A DNA stretch of 19,442 nt from a virus (taxonomy: Duplodnaviria; Heunggongvirae; Uroviricota; Caudoviricetes). Made by a program: the position numbers and the translations under genes. The notes under the pieces were generated by a model that saw only the letters and a list, made by a program, of their open reading frames with translations, ran no database searches and was not told where the DNA came from. Shown in pieces: positions 6,027-16,246 of the stretch (positions are counted from its first letter, which is position 1; the number at the start of each line of letters is the position of its first letter). The DNA is taken from IMG/VR virus record IMGVR_UViG_2609459832_000003, positions 1 through 19,442 of that record; one strand, written 5' to 3'.

Positions 6027-6082
6027 AAAAAACCCGCCAAATCTGCTTTGTCAGTTATTTACAGCGCAGAAGATGTGGCGGG
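6027..6082 (-). terminator. Rho-independent terminator at the 3' end of the AT-rich moron
   Basis: On the minus strand, CCCGCCA (rc of 6076-6082) pairs with UGGCGGG (rc of 6033-6039), with further AUCU/AGAU pairing inside, followed directly by U6 (rc of the A-run 6027-6032). It lies 20 nt after the moron stop codon and just before the gp43 ribosome-binding site. Confidence 0.6.
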
Positions 6083-6101
6083 AATCTAATATTTTTAATT
6101 A

Positions 6102-6596
6102 CTATCTGAGTTGAACATCAATGGAATAAACATCACCACTCTTTATAAATTTAGAATCTGTCCTTTCATCAAAAGATTCAAATGACTGTACATTTAAAAA
6201 CTTTTTCATTTTATTTTCAAAAATACTTTCATTAACACCAGTTAAATATTTGAATGCTCTACCAGCAAGGACCTCATTACTTAAATCCATTGTGTTTTTA
6301 TTGTCTTTGAAAAACCAAACAATAACCTTTTGTGGGCATGATGGATTATAAACAGATATATAAAACTGCGGCTCATATTTTTCATCAGCATCATCACTGA
6401 GCATTTCTTCAGAAGATAATTCTCTTCTGAATTCATATTGCCGCTTAGTGATTCCTTCATCCTTTATTATCTCTTGCTTAACTGGTGCAATACCTATAGA
6501 AGAGATTAATTCTGACTCATTAAAGTTGAACTTACACTCTTCCGCAGCCAAGTTAAAAGATAAAAGTGCAGATATAAAAAAAACAAAGATACGCAT
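6102..6596 (-). CDS. Hypothetical secreted (signal-peptide) protein of unknown function, encoded by an AT-rich moron
   Basis: Complete ORF, stop at 6102. Longest ORF starts at 6614 (MIEGMIM...), but the ATG at 6596 has a GAAGGG Shine-Dalgarno 6 nt upstream and gives a textbook signal peptide: MR + IFVFFISALLSF + NLA/AEE. Very AT-rich codon usage unlike all neighbours. Two Cys in the mature part. No family recognised from memory. Confidence 0.7.
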   Translation of the reverse strand: MRIFVFFISALLSFNLAAEECKFNFNESELISSIGIAPVKQEIIKDEGITKRQYEFRRELSSEEMLSDDADEKYEPQFYISVYNPSCPQKVIVWFFKDNKNTMDLSNEVLAGRAFKYLTGVNESIFENKMKKFLNVQSFESFDERTDSKFIKSGDVYSIDVQLR

Positions 6597-6626
6597 AATC
6601 ATCCCTTCAATCATTTGTAAGGAATG

Positions 6627-6658
6627 ATTATATTAACTACTTAAAGCTGAAAAGCCAA
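6627..6658 (-). promoter_or_regulatory. Candidate sigma70-type promoter for the moron gene
   Basis: On the minus strand: TTGGCT (rc of 6653-6658), 17-nt spacer, TAATAT (rc of 6630-6635), overlapping a perfect TATAAT (rc of 6627-6632). Sits in the 81-bp AT-rich gap between the tape-measure stop and the moron ORF. Predicted start site would give a ~25-nt leader to the 6596 ATG. Confidence 0.35.
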
Positions 6659-6695
6659 ATCATGCCAGACAAAAACACATTAATCATTTTGTACA

Positions 6696-8528
6696 CTACC
6701 TGAACCGCGTATAGCCAACATCATGGCTGACATCAAAACCGCTGGATCGCGTTTCCATAACCCGCATACCCGGAGGCGAATTCACAAAAGAGACCTTGAT
6801 CTCACCATCAACTTTTGGCACAAAAGCTTTGTTAATCATGAAGGGATTCGGGCCTGTGGCATCGGAGGCGTTGTTTGACTGAGCCGGATCTACCGCCGGA
6901 TAAGGTGTGTATCCCCGCGCCGGTATTCCCGTCCCATAAGCATCATAAGCACCCGCGCCCCACTGCGCAGAGTTAATGGCATCGACCGTGTCACCGGAAC
7001 TGTCGGTAAACCACTCAATAATGGGCTTCAGCTTGTCCCACATATCCTGAAACCACTTAACAACCGGCCCCCAGTTATTGATCACCATTCCCAGCGGCGA
7101 CCAGGCAAAAACTTTCTTAAGGAGTTCCCAGCCAGCCTCAAAATAAGGACCAATGGTTTCCCAGAGCTTCTTAAAATAAGGTCCGACAACATCCCAGTTA
7201 GTGATAATTAATCCCGCAGCCAGAGCAATCGCCGTCGCAATCATGCCAATCGGCGTCATCGACATGATCCTGCTGACAATACTGATGGCACCGCCCACGC
7301 CCATCAATCCCAGTTTCAGAATCGCAAGACCGGCAGCAAGCCCGACGATGCCGCGAATAACCCGGGGATTTTCATCCGCAAACTTCGTGAATTTTTCCCC
7401 CAACTCCCCCAGCCATTGCGTGATATTTTTGGCGTCACCAGAAAATGCGCCGCCAATAGCCGCAAGGCCGTTAGTTGCGGTCCCTGTCATTGCCTCCCAC
7501 AGATTGGACAGCGTACCAAGCTGTGCCTGAACACGTTTATTCAGGCTGGCCTGTTTATTCATCTTCTGCTGGATCTGATCGTAACCATCCTTTCCTTTAT
7601 CGATCAGAGCATTGACCACCTGAAGGGTTTCGGCATCATCACCAAATATTGCCTTAAGTACACCTGTTCGCTTAACGTCGGTCAGTTTTCGCAGCTTTGC
7701 CAGTTGCTTAAACATGTTATCAAGACCGCCAAAACTCCCTTTGCCGTCAGTAAAATCGAGCTGCACTCCGAGTTTCTGGCGGGCCATGACTTTATTGACG
7801 TCCCTGATTTTCTTAACGCTTAATCCGGACTGGATAACTTTTCGCAGGGCGTTACCTGCCGACTCCCCGTTCATCCCCATCTGATCCATCATGACGCTGA
7901 TGGGGGCAAGGCTCTGTGCAGCCTGAAGACCGTCCTTGTTCACCATCTTCAGAACAGAGCTGGTTTTAGTGAAGAAGGACAACATGTTGGTATCGTCAAC
8001 GCCCAGATAAAACGCCTTCTGGATAGTGTCGAACAGCCCCATCATGTCTTCTGACGCCGTTCCGGTAGCATCCTGCATCTTTGCGGCAAACTCGGCAGCC
8101 GCTTCCGGTGTTTTTTTCAGTTGTACCGCAAGATAAGCTGTCGCTTTACCCACACCGCCAAGAATGTTTTCTGCCGGGATCCCCTGACGCACCAGCATCT
8201 GCATCATGTTCTGGAAATCAGCCGTTGTACCGGGTAGCTGGTTACCCAGGCCAATAGCCAGTTTATTGATGTCCTGAAAGCGCTTTCCAACCTCGCCGTT
8301 CGCATCCATCATGGCGACTTTCAGCCCGGTGGCGGCGTTTTCCTGATCGGCATAAGATTTCAGGGAAAGCGTCAAACCCGCTGCCAGTCCGCCACCAAGC
8401 GCCAGCCCACCCTGTGACGCTTCTTCCGCCTGGCGTTTAAATCCCCGGATTTTCTTTTGCATTTTCGACAGCGCGGGAGAAAGCCTGTCGACACCGGTGA
8501 TCAACGCCTTAAGCTCAAATTCAGCCAT
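6696..8528 (-). CDS. Tail tape measure protein
   Basis: 610-aa ORF after the chaperone/frameshift pair. Central hydrophobic stretch and periodic aromatic residues (NWDVVGPYFKKLWETIGPYFEAGWELLKKVFAW...WFQDMWDKL) are typical of tape-measure proteins. Gly/Ala-rich. Confidence 0.85.
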   Translation of the reverse strand: MAEFELKALITGVDRLSPALSKMQKKIRGFKRQAEEASQGGLALGGGLAAGLTLSLKSYADQENAATGLKVAMMDANGEVGKRFQDINKLAIGLGNQLPGTTADFQNMMQMLVRQGIPAENILGGVGKATAYLAVQLKKTPEAAAEFAAKMQDATGTASEDMMGLFDTIQKAFYLGVDDTNMLSFFTKTSSVLKMVNKDGLQAAQSLAPISVMMDQMGMNGESAGNALRKVIQSGLSVKKIRDVNKVMARQKLGVQLDFTDGKGSFGGLDNMFKQLAKLRKLTDVKRTGVLKAIFGDDAETLQVVNALIDKGKDGYDQIQQKMNKQASLNKRVQAQLGTLSNLWEAMTGTATNGLAAIGGAFSGDAKNITQWLGELGEKFTKFADENPRVIRGIVGLAAGLAILKLGLMGVGGAISIVSRIMSMTPIGMIATAIALAAGLIITNWDVVGPYFKKLWETIGPYFEAGWELLKKVFAWSPLGMVINNWGPVVKWFQDMWDKLKPIIEWFTDSSGDTVDAINSAQWGAGAYDAYGTGIPARGYTPYPAVDPAQSNNASDATGPNPFMINKAFVPKVDGEIKVSFVNSPPGMRVMETRSSGFDVSHDVGYTRFR

Positions 8529-8703
8529 GTGTGCGTTTCTCCTGCTCTATCCTGTTTGCCTGACTGACCAGCAAGGGAATTTCACTGATCGGCATATTCA
8601 GCAATTCGAAGGGATTAATGCGCCAGTAGCTGGCGCAGTCAAAGAAGCGATCAGTGAGGTATTCAGCCGTCAGGCCTGGAGGAAAAAACCAGCCACAAGC
8701 CAC
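8521..8703 (-). CDS. -1 frame C-terminal extension of the tail assembly chaperone (expressed as a fusion by programmed frameshift, not as a separate gene)
   Basis: ORF in the -1 frame relative to the chaperone, overlapping its last ~11 codons and ending 5 nt before the tape-measure ATG. Slippery heptamer at the overlap (see 8682-8688). Confidence 0.65.
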   Translation of the reverse strand: MACGWFFPPGLTAEYLTDRFFDCASYWRINPFELLNMPISEIPLLVSQANRIEQEKRTHG

Positions 8704-8939
8704 GCCGCTGCATTCAGGTCTGCCGGAGACATCTGGTCGACAGAGCTTTGCGGCACTTTCGCCAGCCGCACAATGTATTTCGACACCACATGCGCCAGAA
8801 GTCTGACGGACTCATCCTGATTCATCTGGTAGGGATACCCCAGCTCGCGGACATCCTTCCCGGTGGGCTCATCAAACTCCAGTACGGAGAGTGTCTCGCC
8901 ATGAGCAGTAATCGGTTTCTTTAACTCAAGCTCTTTCAT
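8670..8939 (-). CDS. Tail assembly chaperone (lambda G-like role; Mu gp41-like position)
   Basis: 89-aa ORF between tube and tape-measure genes. Start overlaps the tube stop (TAATG at 8937-8941). Ends 3 codons after a slippery site. Confidence 0.7.
   Translation of the reverse strand: MKELELKKPITAHGETLSVLEFDEPTGKDVRELGYPYQMNQDESVRLLAHVVSKYIVRLAKVPQSSVDQMSPADLNAAAWLVAGFFLQA
8682..8688 (-). promoter_or_regulatory. Programmed -1 ribosomal frameshift slippery heptamer T_TTT_TTC
   Basis: Minus-strand sequence GCU GGU UUU UUC CUC CAG GCC UGA. The zero-frame codons TTT TTC form an X_XXY_YYZ heptamer; a -1 slip reads TTT TTT CCT CCA GGC... into the 8521-8703 ORF. Confidence 0.65.
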
Positions 8940-9295
8940 TACTGGTAATCCCCTTCTTCACCGTGGAACTCAAGATCAACCGTGCCTTCTTCGGCATTAT
9001 GGTTCGCTTCGCCGTGCAGCCAGGCAGACGACAGTACATAGACCTGACCGTTCGCCAGCTCGGCAGTGATGGTCATCTCATCAGACGAGGTGATTTTGCC
9101 CACCGGAAAATTCTTCGGCACCTTGAAGGTCCCTTTGACATAAGGCGCACGGTGAGTTTCCTTGCGGTCCACTGAACCGTCCAGGCCGATGATGTCATCA
9201 TTGACCGTCCTGTTCATGGGCACCTCAATGCCGCCGGTCAGCGATAGCTGCTGACCGTCAATTTTGAAATAACAGGTTCCCCCGATACGGGCCAT
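8939..9295 (-). CDS. Tail tube protein (contractile tail; Mu gp40 'M'-like)
   Basis: 118-aa ORF immediately after the sheath gene (TAATG overlap at 9293-9297). Size and synteny. Confidence 0.75.
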   Translation of the reverse strand: MARIGGTCYFKIDGQQLSLTGGIEVPMNRTVNDDIIGLDGSVDRKETHRAPYVKGTFKVPKNFPVGKITSSDEMTITAELANGQVYVLSSAWLHGEANHNAEEGTVDLEFHGEEGDYQ

Positions 9296-10791
9296 TATGC
9301 AGACTCCTCTGAATACTGAAGACGGAACTGGTTAACCACGGCAAAGACACGCAACTGGTTAACATAGTCAGGCGGGAACAGCGTGTTCAGGCGATTTGGA
9401 TCGCTGGCATCACGCTCCACAACCAGGTACTGCTTGAACAGTTCGTAGTTTTCCACGATCCCCGCACGCTCGAGCTGACGGTAGGTTGCCAGCAGTTCCC
9501 CTTTGATCACCGCCGGGGTGACAATCGCCTGACCGGGACCAAAGCGGGTACCGTCACTGGCAAGCTTGTGACGCCCGTACTTACTGGTAATGACGGATTT
9601 CAGTTTGCGCAGTACATACGCACTGGTATGCAGCGTCTCGCTGTCGAGGTAGCTGTTATCCGCAACCCCGTAAGCGTTTTTCCTGTACGTGGTGACATCA
9701 CGCTGAATGCGCAGCACCCCGCTTTCGACATACGCCGTTGCCACGCCATGAGACAGCAGGGTCTGCTGCTCGGTCATCGTGAACCGTTTCCCCTTCGGCG
9801 CAGGCAGCATACCCACCAGCTCACCGGTCTGCGTGGGACGTGCCGGATCGTTGCGGATAAACACTGCCGCGCGGGCGGTACGGCTGGCTGCCAGCTCGTC
9901 GGCAGGCGTCTGGGGGTCTTTTTCGTACCCCGCCAGGGTAATGTGCTGCTGGTTAAACTGGTCACCTGCGGTCACCAGTTCTGACAGCGTGCCGGTCTTT
10001 GCCGTATACACATGACCATACAGCTGACGCGCATAGCTCCAGCGACCGCTGGTATCGTTCATCTCGGTCACCAGCGTGTTAACGGAGGCCGTGTCGCTGA
10101 ACGGCAGGCCGATATAATCAAACGGCTCATCCGCCATTGCAGCCACCGCGCCGGTGAGAACAGGAGCGCCCGTTCCGGCGGTACCCGTCGCCACGGCAAT
10201 CTGTACGCCCGCTGGCAGCACTTCGCCCCCACCAAAGCCGTAGTAATTGAGGCTGACAGGAATTTCATTCCCGCAAAGCCCCTTATGACGCGCGGTCAGT
10301 GTGACCACGCCTGCCGAAGATGAAGCCGTAAACGGCAGGGTCGGAACGGCATTGATGGCATCCTGGATACTGCTGGCAATCATCGTGACGTTATCGCCGT
10401 TAGTCACCGGTGCCTGCACGCGGGTACGTCCCACATACACATTCACCGTGCCGGTTTCGGTTGCCGCCCCGGTCACCGTCAGCGTAACCGTTGCCGCCGC
10501 GCCTGTGGATTCAGGAACGGCAATCACATACAGCTCGCCAAACGGGTCAGTCTGGCGATAAGCCTCGACCATACGCGCCAGCTGACTTCCCGCACCACAA
10601 ATCTGGCGTGCATAGTCTGCCGACGGCATCAGTACCAGACTGTTGGCAACAATCTCTGCACCGTTATTGGCATGACCAATCAGCAGCGATGCTCCGCTGT
10701 CCTGTGCAGTATTCGCCGCCTGGTTATCCATTTCCGCATAAAACAACGGAACCAGCGTATTCGACGGAATGGTGTTAAAGCTTATCGTCAT
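9295..10791 (-). CDS. Tail sheath protein (contractile tail; Mu gp39 'L'-like)
   Basis: 498-aa ORF followed by tube, chaperone and tape measure. Size and synteny characteristic of myovirus sheath proteins. Confidence 0.85.
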   Translation of the reverse strand: MTISFNTIPSNTLVPLFYAEMDNQAANTAQDSGASLLIGHANNGAEIVANSLVLMPSADYARQICGAGSQLARMVEAYRQTDPFGELYVIAVPESTGAAATVTLTVTGAATETGTVNVYVGRTRVQAPVTNGDNVTMIASSIQDAINAVPTLPFTASSSAGVVTLTARHKGLCGNEIPVSLNYYGFGGGEVLPAGVQIAVATGTAGTGAPVLTGAVAAMADEPFDYIGLPFSDTASVNTLVTEMNDTSGRWSYARQLYGHVYTAKTGTLSELVTAGDQFNQQHITLAGYEKDPQTPADELAASRTARAAVFIRNDPARPTQTGELVGMLPAPKGKRFTMTEQQTLLSHGVATAYVESGVLRIQRDVTTYRKNAYGVADNSYLDSETLHTSAYVLRKLKSVITSKYGRHKLASDGTRFGPGQAIVTPAVIKGELLATYRQLERAGIVENYELFKQYLVVERDASDPNRLNTLFPPDYVNQLRVFAVVNQFRLQYSEESA

Positions 10792-14845: not shown

Positions 14846-16064
14846 TGGCGTTATCCTTCTGCTTACCGGCTTTACTGCCATCGGAGGGTTTCGTGGTCAT
14901 GTTCATCGGTGTGAGATAGACATCACCACCGGGACGCGGATTCATATCTTCCAGGTCGCGGCAGTCATTGGGAGAGTAAATTCCCCAGTTGATCCCGGTG
15001 GCGTAGGCTTCAAAACGGGACTTCATATCCCCGCGCAGTAACGCCCCGGCGTTAAATTTGGCGTAATAAACGCCCTGCTTACTTTTTCGTACCAGTCCGG
15101 TGTTGATCCGCTGTTCGATGCGGGTCAGATACGGCACCAGTGAATAGTTGATAAATCCCAGCCCCAGCTCTTCGATATTGTTGAAGGTGGCGCGATCGGT
15201 GTTCTGCACCATGTGCAACGGCACCCGGAACAGACGACAGATTTCTTCAAGCTGAAACTTGCGGGTTTCCAGGAACTGGCTGTCCTCGGCGTTCAGCGCC
15301 ATCGACTTCCAGTCCAGCCCCATCTCAAGGATCATCGGGCGGTGAGCATTGCCAAGCCCGGTGTGACGCTCCTCAAAATCTTTCTTCAGGCGCTCATAAG
15401 CCTGATCTGACAGCGTCTGCTCTGTACGCAACACACCCGACGTCACCGCGCCATTGCTGAACAGTCTGGCCCCGTGCTCTTCGGTCGCTGCCGCCAGCGA
15501 TATTGCCTCGCGGGCATAGGCGATGGGATTCAGCCCCACCAGTCCGTCCAGCGTCAGCGTGCGCACATGCCAGATATCCTCCTGGCTCAGTACATCCGTG
15601 GAGCCATCCGGGAATGTGACCTGATAGATCGGCTCCCAGCTACTGTTAAGCTTCGGTACCACACAGCCGGGATCGACGGGCAGCAGTTCAGCCACTTCGC
15701 CAAATGCTTTCACTTTGTAGGCGTAAAAGTTTCCCCGCAGGCACAGACAGGTGACCACCAGCTCCCAGAACTCCTGCGGCGTCATATAGCCATTGGGATG
15801 CGTGGAGATCAGTTTATGCAGACGTTCGCCGGTGGCTCTCTGCTTCAGGCTGCCGTTCAGGTGATACAGATTGCAGGGCAACATCCCGACCGACTCTGCC
15901 AGCACTCTGACGCAGGAAAAAACCGCCGTCAGTCGCATGGCCCGCTGACTGCTGATCTGCTTTCCGGTATAGGTGTCGTAGGACAACCCGATGGCATCCG
16001 CCAGCTCTGCTGGCGTGGTCACCGGTGCGTCACTTTTTCGTTGAAATAATCCCGAAAAGAACAC
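14823..16064 (-). CDS. Portal protein (HK97 family)
   Basis: 413-aa ORF between the terminase and protease genes. GTG start at 16062-16064 with GGAGG 6 nt upstream, overlapping the stop of the preceding small ORF (TAGTG). Confidence 0.9.
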   Translation of the reverse strand: MFFSGLFQRKSDAPVTTPAELADAIGLSYDTYTGKQISSQRAMRLTAVFSCVRVLAESVGMLPCNLYHLNGSLKQRATGERLHKLISTHPNGYMTPQEFWELVVTCLCLRGNFYAYKVKAFGEVAELLPVDPGCVVPKLNSSWEPIYQVTFPDGSTDVLSQEDIWHVRTLTLDGLVGLNPIAYAREAISLAAATEEHGARLFSNGAVTSGVLRTEQTLSDQAYERLKKDFEERHTGLGNAHRPMILEMGLDWKSMALNAEDSQFLETRKFQLEEICRLFRVPLHMVQNTDRATFNNIEELGLGFINYSLVPYLTRIEQRINTGLVRKSKQGVYYAKFNAGALLRGDMKSRFEAYATGINWGIYSPNDCRDLEDMNPRPGGDVYLTPMNMTTKPSDGSKAGKQKDNANADETTS

Positions 16065-16246
16065 TATTTACCTCCACCAACAGACAGCTGTGTACGATCG
16101 AGATATCGCGCTACCAGCCACGACCAGAACAGGCACAACGCCCCGGCAACAACAAACCCCGCCGGGGGATAAATCAGCCAGGCACCATACGCCAGCAAAA
16201 GCGCCCCCAGCACGCCCACCAGAGGCGCGAGAATCAGCATGATCAT
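16064..16246 (-). CDS. Small predicted membrane protein (two hydrophobic segments), function unknown
   Basis: 60-aa [52 protein letters not shown]... GAGGT Shine-Dalgarno 5 nt upstream of the ATG at 16246. Stop overlaps the portal start, so it is translationally coupled. Confidence 0.5.

What the first reader, a model, noticed from the sequence alone, without database searches (positions are those of the whole stretch)
8521..8939. Programmed -1 frameshift in the tail assembly chaperone (G/GT-like) with a T_TTT_TTC slippery site
The chaperone ORF (8670-8939) ends 3 codons after a perfect X_XXY_YYZ heptamer (coding strand T TTT TTC, plus-strand 8682-8688). The -1 frame ORF continues for another ~53 codons and stops 5 nt before the tape-measure start. 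This is the conserved arrangement of lambda G/GT and Mu-like chaperones, predicting a ~139-aa fusion made at low frequency. The ORF track shows 8521-8703 as a separate ORF, which would mis-annotate it.
Basis: partly seen in the sequence, partly recalled or inferred. Interest (0 to 1): 0.5.

Follow-up and report, generated by a model that had tools for sequence, protein, structure and literature searches.

The report
Unannotated tail-chaperone frameshift, SfV-like prophage
In this SfV-like E. coli prophage, the small tail-assembly chaperone gene between the tail tube and tape-measure genes carries a conserved T_TTT_TTC slip site that should yield a second, 139-aa protein by -1 frameshifting; this is a textbook phage device, real here but missing from public annotations.

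Summary
On the minus strand, an 89-aa chaperone ORF (8939-8670, Pfam PF10109) contains an in-phase T_TTT_TTC heptamer (8688-8682) three codons before its stop. The -1 frame stays open for 53 more codons, giving a 139-aa fusion. One detail is wrong: the -1 stop (8523-8521) overlaps the tape-measure ATG (8528) by 8 nt; it does not lie 5 nt before it.

Comparative evidence is strong. All 26 related loci examined (100-40% protein identity) keep the T6/T7 run in the same phase. Synonymous sites inside the run are frozen, while those of other invariant residues vary. The -1 extension shows coding-type substitution and a conserved motif, and it ends at the tape-measure start. Most loci have no start codon for it, so it is not a separate gene.

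The closest known case is phage P2 E/E+E' (TTTTTTG, 91/142 aa, same position, same 8-nt overlap), not Mu, which uses -2. No conserved stimulatory RNA structure was found. Production of the protein, its efficiency, and ribosomal versus transcriptional slippage were not tested here.

The kind is well known. This member is unannotated in all seven records opened, and the region is found in about 20% of complete E. coli genomes. Interest is low.

The parts
8670..8939 (-). Tail assembly chaperone ORF (G-like / P2 E-like), 89 aa, the zero-frame product
   Evidence: ORF list and translation. Pfam PF10109 Phage_TAC_7 at 60.3 bits against a cutoff of 25, residues 4-86 matching profile positions 2-78 of 79. 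phrog_166 'tail protein'. RefSeq annotates it as 'phage tail assembly protein'.
8682..8688 (-). Slippery heptamer T_TTT_TTC: P-site codon TTT, A-site codon TTC, both read by tRNA-Phe
   Evidence: Phase checked. GG-TTTTTT-Y is kept in the same phase in all 23 genome loci, and a T6/T7 run is kept in phages AH07, F1055 and SfIV. Gly84 is GGT in 22/22 and Phe85 is TTT in 22/22 unique sequences, while the wobble sites of other invariant residues vary.
8521..8682 (-). -1 frame extension (E'/T-like): 53 codons (8682-8524) plus the TGA stop (8523-8521). Reachable only by a shift from the chaperone ORF.
   Evidence: Translation. Matches phrog_32181 at E 4e-40. Conserved motif FDCAxYWRINPxELL...QANRI, and the end lies at the tape-measure start in all relatives. 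Differences by codon position are 478/291/950, with 0 stops in this frame against 2-7 in the other two. 12 of 21 unique loci have no start codon for it, and none has a Shine-Dalgarno (SD) sequence.
8521..8939 (-). Predicted frameshift fusion CDS, join(8939..8682, 8682..8521), 139 aa
   Evidence: Built. Predicted fusions in relatives are 136-148 aa from the start codons assigned. The profile of these fusions aligns with P2 E+E' over 118 columns at E 7.8e-5, with the shift sites in register.
6696..8528 (-). Tail tape measure protein gene (610 aa). Its ATG overlaps the -1 ORF stop by 8 nt.
   Evidence: PF10145 at 95 bits. PHROG tape measure families. The overlap is computed.
8939..9295 (-). Tail tube gene (118 aa). 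Its stop overlaps the chaperone ATG (TAATG).
   Evidence: PF10618 Tail_tube at 113 bits. Sequence.
9295..10791 (-). Tail sheath gene (498 aa). It sets the myovirus tail-gene context.
   Evidence: PF04984, PF17482 and PF17481. phrog_165 tail sheath at E 1.6e-231.

Best explanation
This is the tail assembly chaperone pair of an SfV-like prophage with an HK97-type head and a Mu-type contractile tail. Most ribosomes translate the 89-aa chaperone and stop at 8672-8670. A minority slip back one base while tRNA-Phe occupies both the P site (UUU) and the A site (UUC) of U_UUU_UUC. Both tRNAs re-pair with UUU in the -1 frame. Translation then continues for 53 codons to a stop that overlaps the tape-measure ATG, giving a 139-aa protein with the same N-terminal 86 residues and a new C-terminal domain.

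By analogy with lambda gpG/gpGT and P2 E/E+E', the shared N-terminal part would bind the tape measure protein. The extension would recruit the tube protein. The fixed ratio of the two products would be needed for tail assembly, and neither would be expected in the virion.

Shown here: the anatomy, family membership, and conservation of the site, phase and -1 coding capacity. Inferred: that the fusion is made, its frequency, the ribosomal mechanism, and the chaperone function.
For: - Anatomy and phase.
- PF10109 hit that ends exactly at the slip site.
- Position between the tube and tape-measure genes in a complete late operon.
- All 23 genome loci, from 100% to 40% identity and including Pantoea and the betaproteobacterium Derxia, keep GG-TTTTTT-Y in phase.
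- In those loci the zero-frame stop moves (3, 8-9, 14 or 21 codons downstream), yet the -1 ORF always runs 50-59 codons to the tape-measure start.
- SfIV and F1055 alleles change the preceding residue (Gly to Arg or Asn) but keep its wobble T.
- Wobble sites inside the heptamer are frozen (22/22); elsewhere they vary.
- Third-position excess and no stops in the -1 frame.
- No conserved start codon or SD for the extension.
- The only stretch in which a shift could occur in every relative runs from about 21 nt upstream to 12 nt downstream of the heptamer's last base, and it holds no other slippery motif.
- P2 E/E+E' is annotated with a -1 shift at GG-TTTTTT-G at the same position, with products of 91/142 aa and the same 8-nt overlap with its tape-measure gene.
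- hhalign of the fusion profile against P2 E+E' gives E 7.8e-5.
- U_UUU_UUY is among the shift-prone motifs in E. coli (PMC4066793).
- Role and ratio of G/GT: PMC5009743.
Against: - No direct evidence of the protein was obtained here.
- In a reporter, U_UUU_UUC alone gives only 0.12% shifting, rising to 7.6% with the IS3 pseudoknot stimulator (PMC4066793 Table S3).
- I found no conserved stimulatory hairpin or SD-like element near the site, so the native efficiency is unknown.
- The extension does not hit Pfam PF06528, the P2 E' family, and pairwise BLAST against P2 E+E' is not significant (E 0.63).
- Ribosomal and transcriptional slippage give the same protein sequence and cannot be told apart from sequence.
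Confidence: 0.88

Rival explanations
1. The fusion is made by transcriptional slippage, not by the ribosome. RNA polymerase adds one extra U while copying the T6 run, and the edited mRNAs encode the same GFFPPG... fusion in a single frame.
For: The site is a homopolymer: T6 here, T7 in L099/L100, L104/L105, SfIV and F1055. Selection for a wobble T before the run also lengthens the run. U7 and A7 runs are avoided in E. coli genes in all three frames, possibly because of such slippage (PMC4066793). The intrinsic ribosomal efficiency of UUUUUUC in a reporter is low, 0.12%.
Against: Six residues is short for efficient slippage by E. coli RNA polymerase; from established knowledge, runs of about 8-9 or more are usually needed. 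Every relative keeps the run in the X_XXY_YYZ phase. The homologous P2 site is annotated and cited as a translational frameshift (PMC3091744). The last base is always a pyrimidine, which fits A-site re-pairing of tRNA-Phe.
Confidence: 0.07
2. The downstream ORF (8703-8521, 60 aa from a GTG) is an independent small gene, as annotated in phage vB_EcoM-689R6 and grouped in phrog_32181.
For: The mechanical ORF list calls it. One GenBank record annotates it as a hypothetical protein. PHROGs holds a family of such stand-alone calls.
Against: 12 of 21 unique relatives have no ATG, GTG or TTG in that frame between the last upstream stop and the conserved motif. Where one exists, it is a by-product of the conserved Trp codon of the zero frame and has no SD. 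The GTG at 8703 has no SD upstream of it.
Confidence: 0.02
3. The heptamer and the open -1 frame are coincidental. Only the 89-aa protein is made, and the 141 nt before the tape-measure gene are untranslated leader, as in the RefSeq annotations.
For: RefSeq/PGAP and the SfV, SfI, SfII, SfIV, AH07 and F1055 records annotate nothing in the gap.
Against: The -1 frame shows a coding-type substitution pattern (478/291/950) and no stops, against 2-7 stops in the other frames. A protein motif is conserved down to 40% identity of the chaperone. Synonymous sites in the heptamer are frozen.
Confidence: 0.03

Closest known systems
Phage P2 gpE / gpE+E' (-1 frameshift in the FETUD tail operon; Christie et al. 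2002, cited through PMC3091744; annotated in NC_001895)
   Same: Same Pfam family for the upstream protein: PF10109 is described as covering 'E, or 41 or 14'. GG-TTTTTT-N heptamer in the same phase and at the same place (VVGF|L against VAGF|F). Products of 91/142 aa against 89/139 aa. The gene lies between the tube and tape-measure genes of a contractile tail. The extension's stop overlaps the tape-measure ATG by the same 8 nt. No downstream stimulatory hairpin is reported for P2 or found here.
   Different: The last base of the heptamer is C (or T in relatives) rather than G, so the A-site codon is Phe, not Leu. The extension is not recognised by Pfam PF06528 (Phage_P2_GpE), which hits P2 E' at 78.7 bits. 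Overall similarity is detectable only by profile comparison (E 7.8e-5, probability 61%). The tail module here is Mu/SfV-type, not P2-type.
Phage lambda gpG / gpGT (G_GGA_AAG, -1 frameshift; Levin et al. 1993; Xu et al. 2004, 2013, 2014, cited through PMC5009743)
   Same: Same logic and gene position: a chaperone ORF before the tape-measure gene, a slippery heptamer near its end, and a -1 extension with no start of its own. It is the functional model in which the G part binds the tape measure and the T part binds the tube protein, at a fixed ratio of about 30:1.
   Different: No detectable sequence similarity. A different heptamer and different tRNAs. Lambda has a non-contractile tail.
Phage Mu gp41 (Mup41) tail assembly chaperone with a -2 frameshift
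   Same: The neighbouring tail genes (sheath L, tube M, gp38, N, gp44-48) are Mu-like, and the chaperone sits in the same slot.
   Different: Mu gp41 is 144 aa and its extension lies in the +1/-2 frame. The literature describes a -2 shift (PMC5009743; PMC2628397). Mu has no T6 run at that place.

Membership tests
G/GT-type tail assembly chaperone frameshift (Xu, Hendrix & Duda 2004 definition) | Two overlapping ORFs located between the major tail/tube gene and the tape measure gene | tested here: met
   Tube 8939-9295, chaperone 8670-8939, -1 ORF down to 8521, tape measure from 8528.
G/GT-type tail assembly chaperone frameshift (Xu, Hendrix & Duda 2004 definition) | [quoted passage not shown] | tested here: met
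   T_TTT_TTC at 8688-8682, three codons before the stop. It is the only heptamer in the window that opens a long -1 ORF.
G/GT-type tail assembly chaperone frameshift (Xu, Hendrix & Duda 2004 definition) | The downstream ORF has no translation start of its own | tested here: met
   No start codon in 12 of 21 unique relatives, and no SD in any.
G/GT-type tail assembly chaperone frameshift (Xu, Hendrix & Duda 2004 definition) | Slip site and downstream coding frame conserved among diverged relatives | tested here: met
   23 of 23 genome loci plus 3 phages. Frozen wobble sites. Codon-position pattern.
G/GT-type tail assembly chaperone frameshift (Xu, Hendrix & Duda 2004 definition) | Fusion protein made at a low, fixed ratio to the short protein | not testable with these tools
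   Needs western blot, mass spectrometry or a reporter assay. Reporter values for the bare motif are 0.12% alone and 7.6% with the IS3 pseudoknot (PMC4066793).
G/GT-type tail assembly chaperone frameshift (Xu, Hendrix & Duda 2004 definition) | Both products required for tail assembly and absent from virions | not testable with these tools
   Genetic and biochemical property; known for lambda (PMC5009743). For P2, essentiality only is on record (annotation).
Pfam PF10109 Phage_TAC_7 (tail assembly chaperone E / 41 / 14) | Score above the curated gathering threshold | tested here: met
   60.3 bits against a cutoff of 25, E 1.9e-16.
P2 E+E' extension family, Pfam PF06528 Phage_P2_GpE | The extension matches the PF06528 profile | tested here: not met
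   No hit at E up to 10 for four extensions of this family, while P2 E' scores 78.7 bits.
P2 E+E' extension family, Pfam PF06528 Phage_P2_GpE | Homology of the whole fusion to P2 E+E' | tested here: inconclusive
   hhalign gives E 7.8e-5 at only 61% probability over 118 columns, with the shift sites and the A..(F/Y)(W/H)...P.EL motif in register. Pairwise BLAST gives E 0.63.
Mu-type -2 chaperone frameshift | Extension encoded in the +1/-2 frame relative to the chaperone | tested here: not met
   Here the +1 frame closes 2 codons past the zero-frame stop in the two relatives whose shift-site sequence is identical to the window's (L085, L086), and the extension is in -1. In Mu the extension lies in the +1/-2 frame.

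The most novel reading that the evidence does not exclude
The bare U_UUU_UUC motif shifts only about 0.1% in a reporter. Frameshifting here may therefore depend on an unrecognised stimulator, or run partly through transcriptional slippage. Candidate stimulators are the nascent AGFF peptide, the flanking CCUCC context, or the conserved 7-bp hairpin about 48 nt downstream of the start of the heptamer. Either case would make this family a test bed for stimulator-free or unconventional -1 recoding, shared with P2.
Probability: 0.1. Interest if true: 0.35.

Novelty: new member of a known kind. Interest (0 to 1): 0.15.

Why it matters
The value is mainly in annotation. The matching region occurs in 1100 of 5426 complete E. 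coli genomes and in the Shigella serotype-converting phages SfV, SfI and SfII. SfIV carries a diverged allele. None of the seven records I opened annotates the fusion. They either leave a 141-nt 'gap' or call a spurious 60-aa hypothetical protein. A correct join annotation would add a probably essential tail-assembly protein. It would also remove phrog_32181-type orphan ORFs. It further shows that a Mu-type tail module can carry a P2-type -1 chaperone site in place of Mu's -2 site. It does not change our understanding of recoding.

Tried and rejected
1. Stimulatory RNA structure.
- The MFE fold of the 99 nt starting at the heptamer has z = -1.66, which is not significant.
- Per-locus folds differ from one another.
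- RNAalifold on 15 sequences finds no helix within 40 nt after the site.
- The one conserved 7-bp hairpin, about 48 nt downstream, has no covariation (covariation term +0.17) and overlaps the conserved CASYWR codons.
- By eye, no SD-like element is conserved 6-17 nt upstream.

2. The full-length 137-139-aa database proteins P0001-P0003 looked like natural in-frame fusions. Their sequences carry several indels, and each is a single-member cluster (P0002 and P0003 also on a single contig; P0001's sequence is shared with P0004). I take them to be assembly errors.

3. Structure.
- The AlphaFold2 model of the 89-aa part is of low confidence (pLDDT 66, pTM 0.47).
- It has no PDB fold match (best E 5.9).
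- A profile search of PDB sequences also found nothing.

4. NCBIfam has no model for the fusion.

5. Literature.
- Christie 2002, Xu 2004 and the SfV genome paper are not held in the library.
- I therefore could not check whether SfV was already listed among predicted frameshifts.
- Full-text searches found no paper describing this site.

6. The first viral-contig scan returned only 100%-identical copies. Diversity came from the species-dereplicated genome scan.
Full report
**What the window is.** All long genes lie on the minus strand and form the complete late operon of a prophage. Pfam identifies, in order:
- HNH endonuclease, small and large terminase, portal, S78 prohead protease and HK97-type capsid;
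- connector proteins, tail terminator and DUF2635;
- tail sheath (9295-10791) and tail tube (8939-9295);
- a small PF10109 protein (8670-8939) and the tape measure protein (6696-8528);
- the Mu-type DNA-circulation protein and baseplate proteins gp44-gp48.

The DNA around the finding is 98.5-99.2% identical to Shigella phages SfV, SfI and SfII and to two E. coli phages. It is 100% identical to prophages in E. coli chromosomes. A matching region is found in 1100 of 5426 complete E. coli genomes.

**Checking the observation.**
- The ORF 8939-8670 encodes 89 aa.
- The run TTTTTTC occupies 8688-8682 on the coding strand and is phased T_TTT_TTC.
- Three codons (CTC CAG GCC) follow before the TGA at 8672-8670.
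- After a -1 slip the reading frame gives PPGLTAEYL...EKRTHG, 53 codons, ending at the TGA 8523-8521.

The one error concerns the end. The tape-measure ATG is at 8528, so the -1 ORF does not stop 5 nt before it. It overlaps it by 8 nt (ATGGCTGA).

The arrangement is unlikely to be chance. The window's 23 long ORFs (5936 codons) hold ten in-phase XXXYYYZ heptamers. Only this one is followed by a long -1 ORF that runs past the zero-frame stop.

**Comparative evidence.** A scan of one genome per species returned 23 loci encoding relatives of the chaperone. Their protein identity ranges from 100% down to 40%. They come from Shigella, Edwardsiella, Buttiauxella, Citrobacter, Kluyvera, Erwinia, Pantoea, Kosakonia and the betaproteobacterium Derxia.

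In every one, GG-TTTTTT-C/T sits in the same phase. The zero-frame stop is not fixed: it lies 3, 8-9, 14 or 21 codons downstream. The -1 frame, however, always stays open for 50-59 codons. It ends within a few bases of the tape-measure start, usually with the same 8-nt overlap. The +1 frame closes much earlier in all but the GC-rich Derxia locus, 2-27 codons past the zero-frame stop.

The extensions share a motif, FDCAxYWRINPxELL...QANRI, still recognisable in Derxia as VAYFWHISPLEV. Three further lines of evidence support this reading:
- **Coding selection in the -1 frame.** Among ten unique sequences with identical geometry, differences by codon position of the -1 frame are 478/291/950. There are no stops in that frame, against 2-7 per sequence in the other two. 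The chaperone proper gives 631/377/1961.
- **Selection on the nucleotides of the slip site.** In 22 unique sequences, Gly84 is always GGT and Phe85 always TTT. The wobble positions of other invariant Ala, Pro, Gly, His, Tyr and Asp residues vary freely. In the more distant SfIV and F1055 alleles the residue before the run changes from Gly to Arg or Asn, but its codon still ends in T (CGT TTT TTT, AAT TTT TTT).
- **No independent start.** In 12 of 21 unique loci the -1 frame holds no ATG, GTG or TTG between its last upstream stop and the conserved motif. Where one exists, as with GTG 8703 here, it comes from the conserved Trp codon of the zero frame and has no Shine-Dalgarno (SD) sequence.

The stretch in which a shift could occur in every relative is therefore narrow, from about 21 nt upstream to 12 nt downstream of the heptamer's last base. 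It holds no other slippery motif.

**Mechanism.** The best-supported reading is simultaneous -1 slippage of two tRNA-Phe molecules on U_UUU_UUC. E. coli has a single tRNA-Phe (anticodon GAA) that reads both codons; this is established knowledge, not tested here.

U_UUU_UUY belongs to the shift-prone class in E. coli (PMC4066793). In that study's reporter, the bare UUUUUUC motif gave 0.12%, rising to 7.6% with the IS3 pseudoknot. P2's UUUUUUG gave 0.12% alone.

I found no conserved stimulator. The local fold is not significant (z = -1.66). Folds differ between relatives. The consensus fold has no helix within 40 nt after the site. A conserved 7-bp hairpin about 48 nt downstream shows no covariation and coincides with the conserved CASYWR codons. 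P2 and its relatives are also reported to lack such a structure (PMC3091744).

The native efficiency therefore cannot be predicted. The review PMC5009743 gives a G:GT ratio of about 30:1 for lambda and a 2- to 3-fold higher efficiency for P2.

Transcriptional slippage on the T6/T7 run would yield the identical protein and cannot be excluded from sequence. I rate it unlikely because the run is short, its phase is conserved, and the homologous P2 site is treated as translational.

**Function (inferred).** By analogy with lambda and P2, the short protein and the shared part of the long one would coat the tape measure protein. The extension would recruit the tube protein. Neither would be expected in the virion (PMC5009743; P2 annotation 'essential tail protein').

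**Comparison with known systems.** The closest known case is P2 E/E+E', not Mu.
- P2's annotated shift site is GTC GGT TTT TTG, at the same place in the same Pfam family.
- P2's products are 91 and 142 aa, against 89 and 139 aa here.
- P2's extension overlaps the start of its tape-measure gene T by the same 8 nt.
- A profile of 16 predicted fusions aligns with P2 E+E' over 118 columns (E 7.8e-5, probability 61%). The VAGF/VVGF shift sites and the A..(F/Y)(W/H)..P.EL motif are in register.

The extension is nevertheless not a member of Pfam PF06528, the P2 E' family, and pairwise BLAST is not significant. Mu's tail genes otherwise resemble this module, but its chaperone is 144 aa with an extension in the +1/-2 frame. 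The literature describes a -2 shift there. This is thus a Mu-type tail module carrying a P2-type -1 chaperone site.

**Annotation status and novelty.** None of the records I opened annotates the fusion. RefSeq/PGAP prophages, SfV, SfIV, Pantoea phage AH07 and Salmonella phage F1055 leave the stretch before the tape-measure gene empty (141 nt where the allele matches the window's, 84 nt in SfIV and F1055). The feature names listed under the hits for SfI and SfII show no fusion either. One phage record calls the extension a separate hypothetical protein, and PHROGs holds those calls as an orphan family, phrog_32181.

Four full-text searches found no paper describing this site. The key surveys (Xu 2004, Christie 2002) and the SfV genome paper are not in the library, so an earlier listing cannot be ruled out.

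The phenomenon is textbook. I class this as a new, or at least unannotated, member of a known kind, of low interest beyond correcting annotation.

**What led nowhere.**
- Apparent full-length fusion proteins in the database are indel-ridden singleton entries.
- The AlphaFold2 model of the 89-aa part is weak (pLDDT 66) and has no fold match.
- PDB sequence and NCBIfam searches found nothing.

Noticed in passing
window 6028-6660 (minus strand): An AT-rich insert (GC about 30%, against 52-55% in the flanks) lies between the tape-measure and DNA-circulation genes. It holds ORF 6102-6614 (170 aa). The likely true start is ATG 6596, giving MRIFVFFISALLSFNLAAEE, which looks like a signal peptide. There is no Pfam or NCBIfam hit, only phrog_8976 (unknown function). 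A hairpin plus T-run that looks like a terminator follows at about 6075-6028. It resembles a moron encoding a secreted protein.
   Followed up: partly
window 6576-6583 (A8 on the plus strand, T8 on the coding minus strand): A T8 homopolymer lies inside the signal-peptide codons of the AT-rich ORF and includes an in-phase TTTTTTT heptamer. The -1 frame closes after 7 codons. This is a candidate site for slipped-strand or transcriptional-slippage on/off variation of that gene.
   Followed up: no
window 8617-8633 (minus strand), about 48 nt downstream of the start of the heptamer: A 7-8-bp GC-rich hairpin (GCGCCAG-CUA-CUGGCGC) is conserved in most close relatives. It shows no compensatory changes and coincides with the conserved C-A-S-Y-W-R codons of the extension. 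It lies too far downstream for a classical frameshift stimulator.
   Followed up: partly
proteins P0001-P0006 (database hits to the fusion): Metagenome and Logan assemblies contain 107-139-aa 'in-frame' versions of the chaperone plus extension. All carry several indels around the T-run and elsewhere. They look like homopolymer assembly errors rather than natural fusions.
   Followed up: yes
L111 (Shigella phage SfIV), L110 (Salmonella phage F1055), L104/L105 (Pantoea): A second allele class of the chaperone (107-108 aa) has its zero-frame stop 21 codons after a T7 heptamer. About 60 nt are therefore read in two frames. The tube gene is nearly identical between SfV and SfIV, but the match breaks off inside the chaperone gene, which suggests a mosaic recombination joint there.
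   Followed up: partly
window 16064-16246 (minus strand): A 60-aa ORF lies between the large terminase and portal genes. It matches phrog_502, 'membrane protein' in the moron/host-takeover category, an unusual position inside the head module.
   Followed up: no
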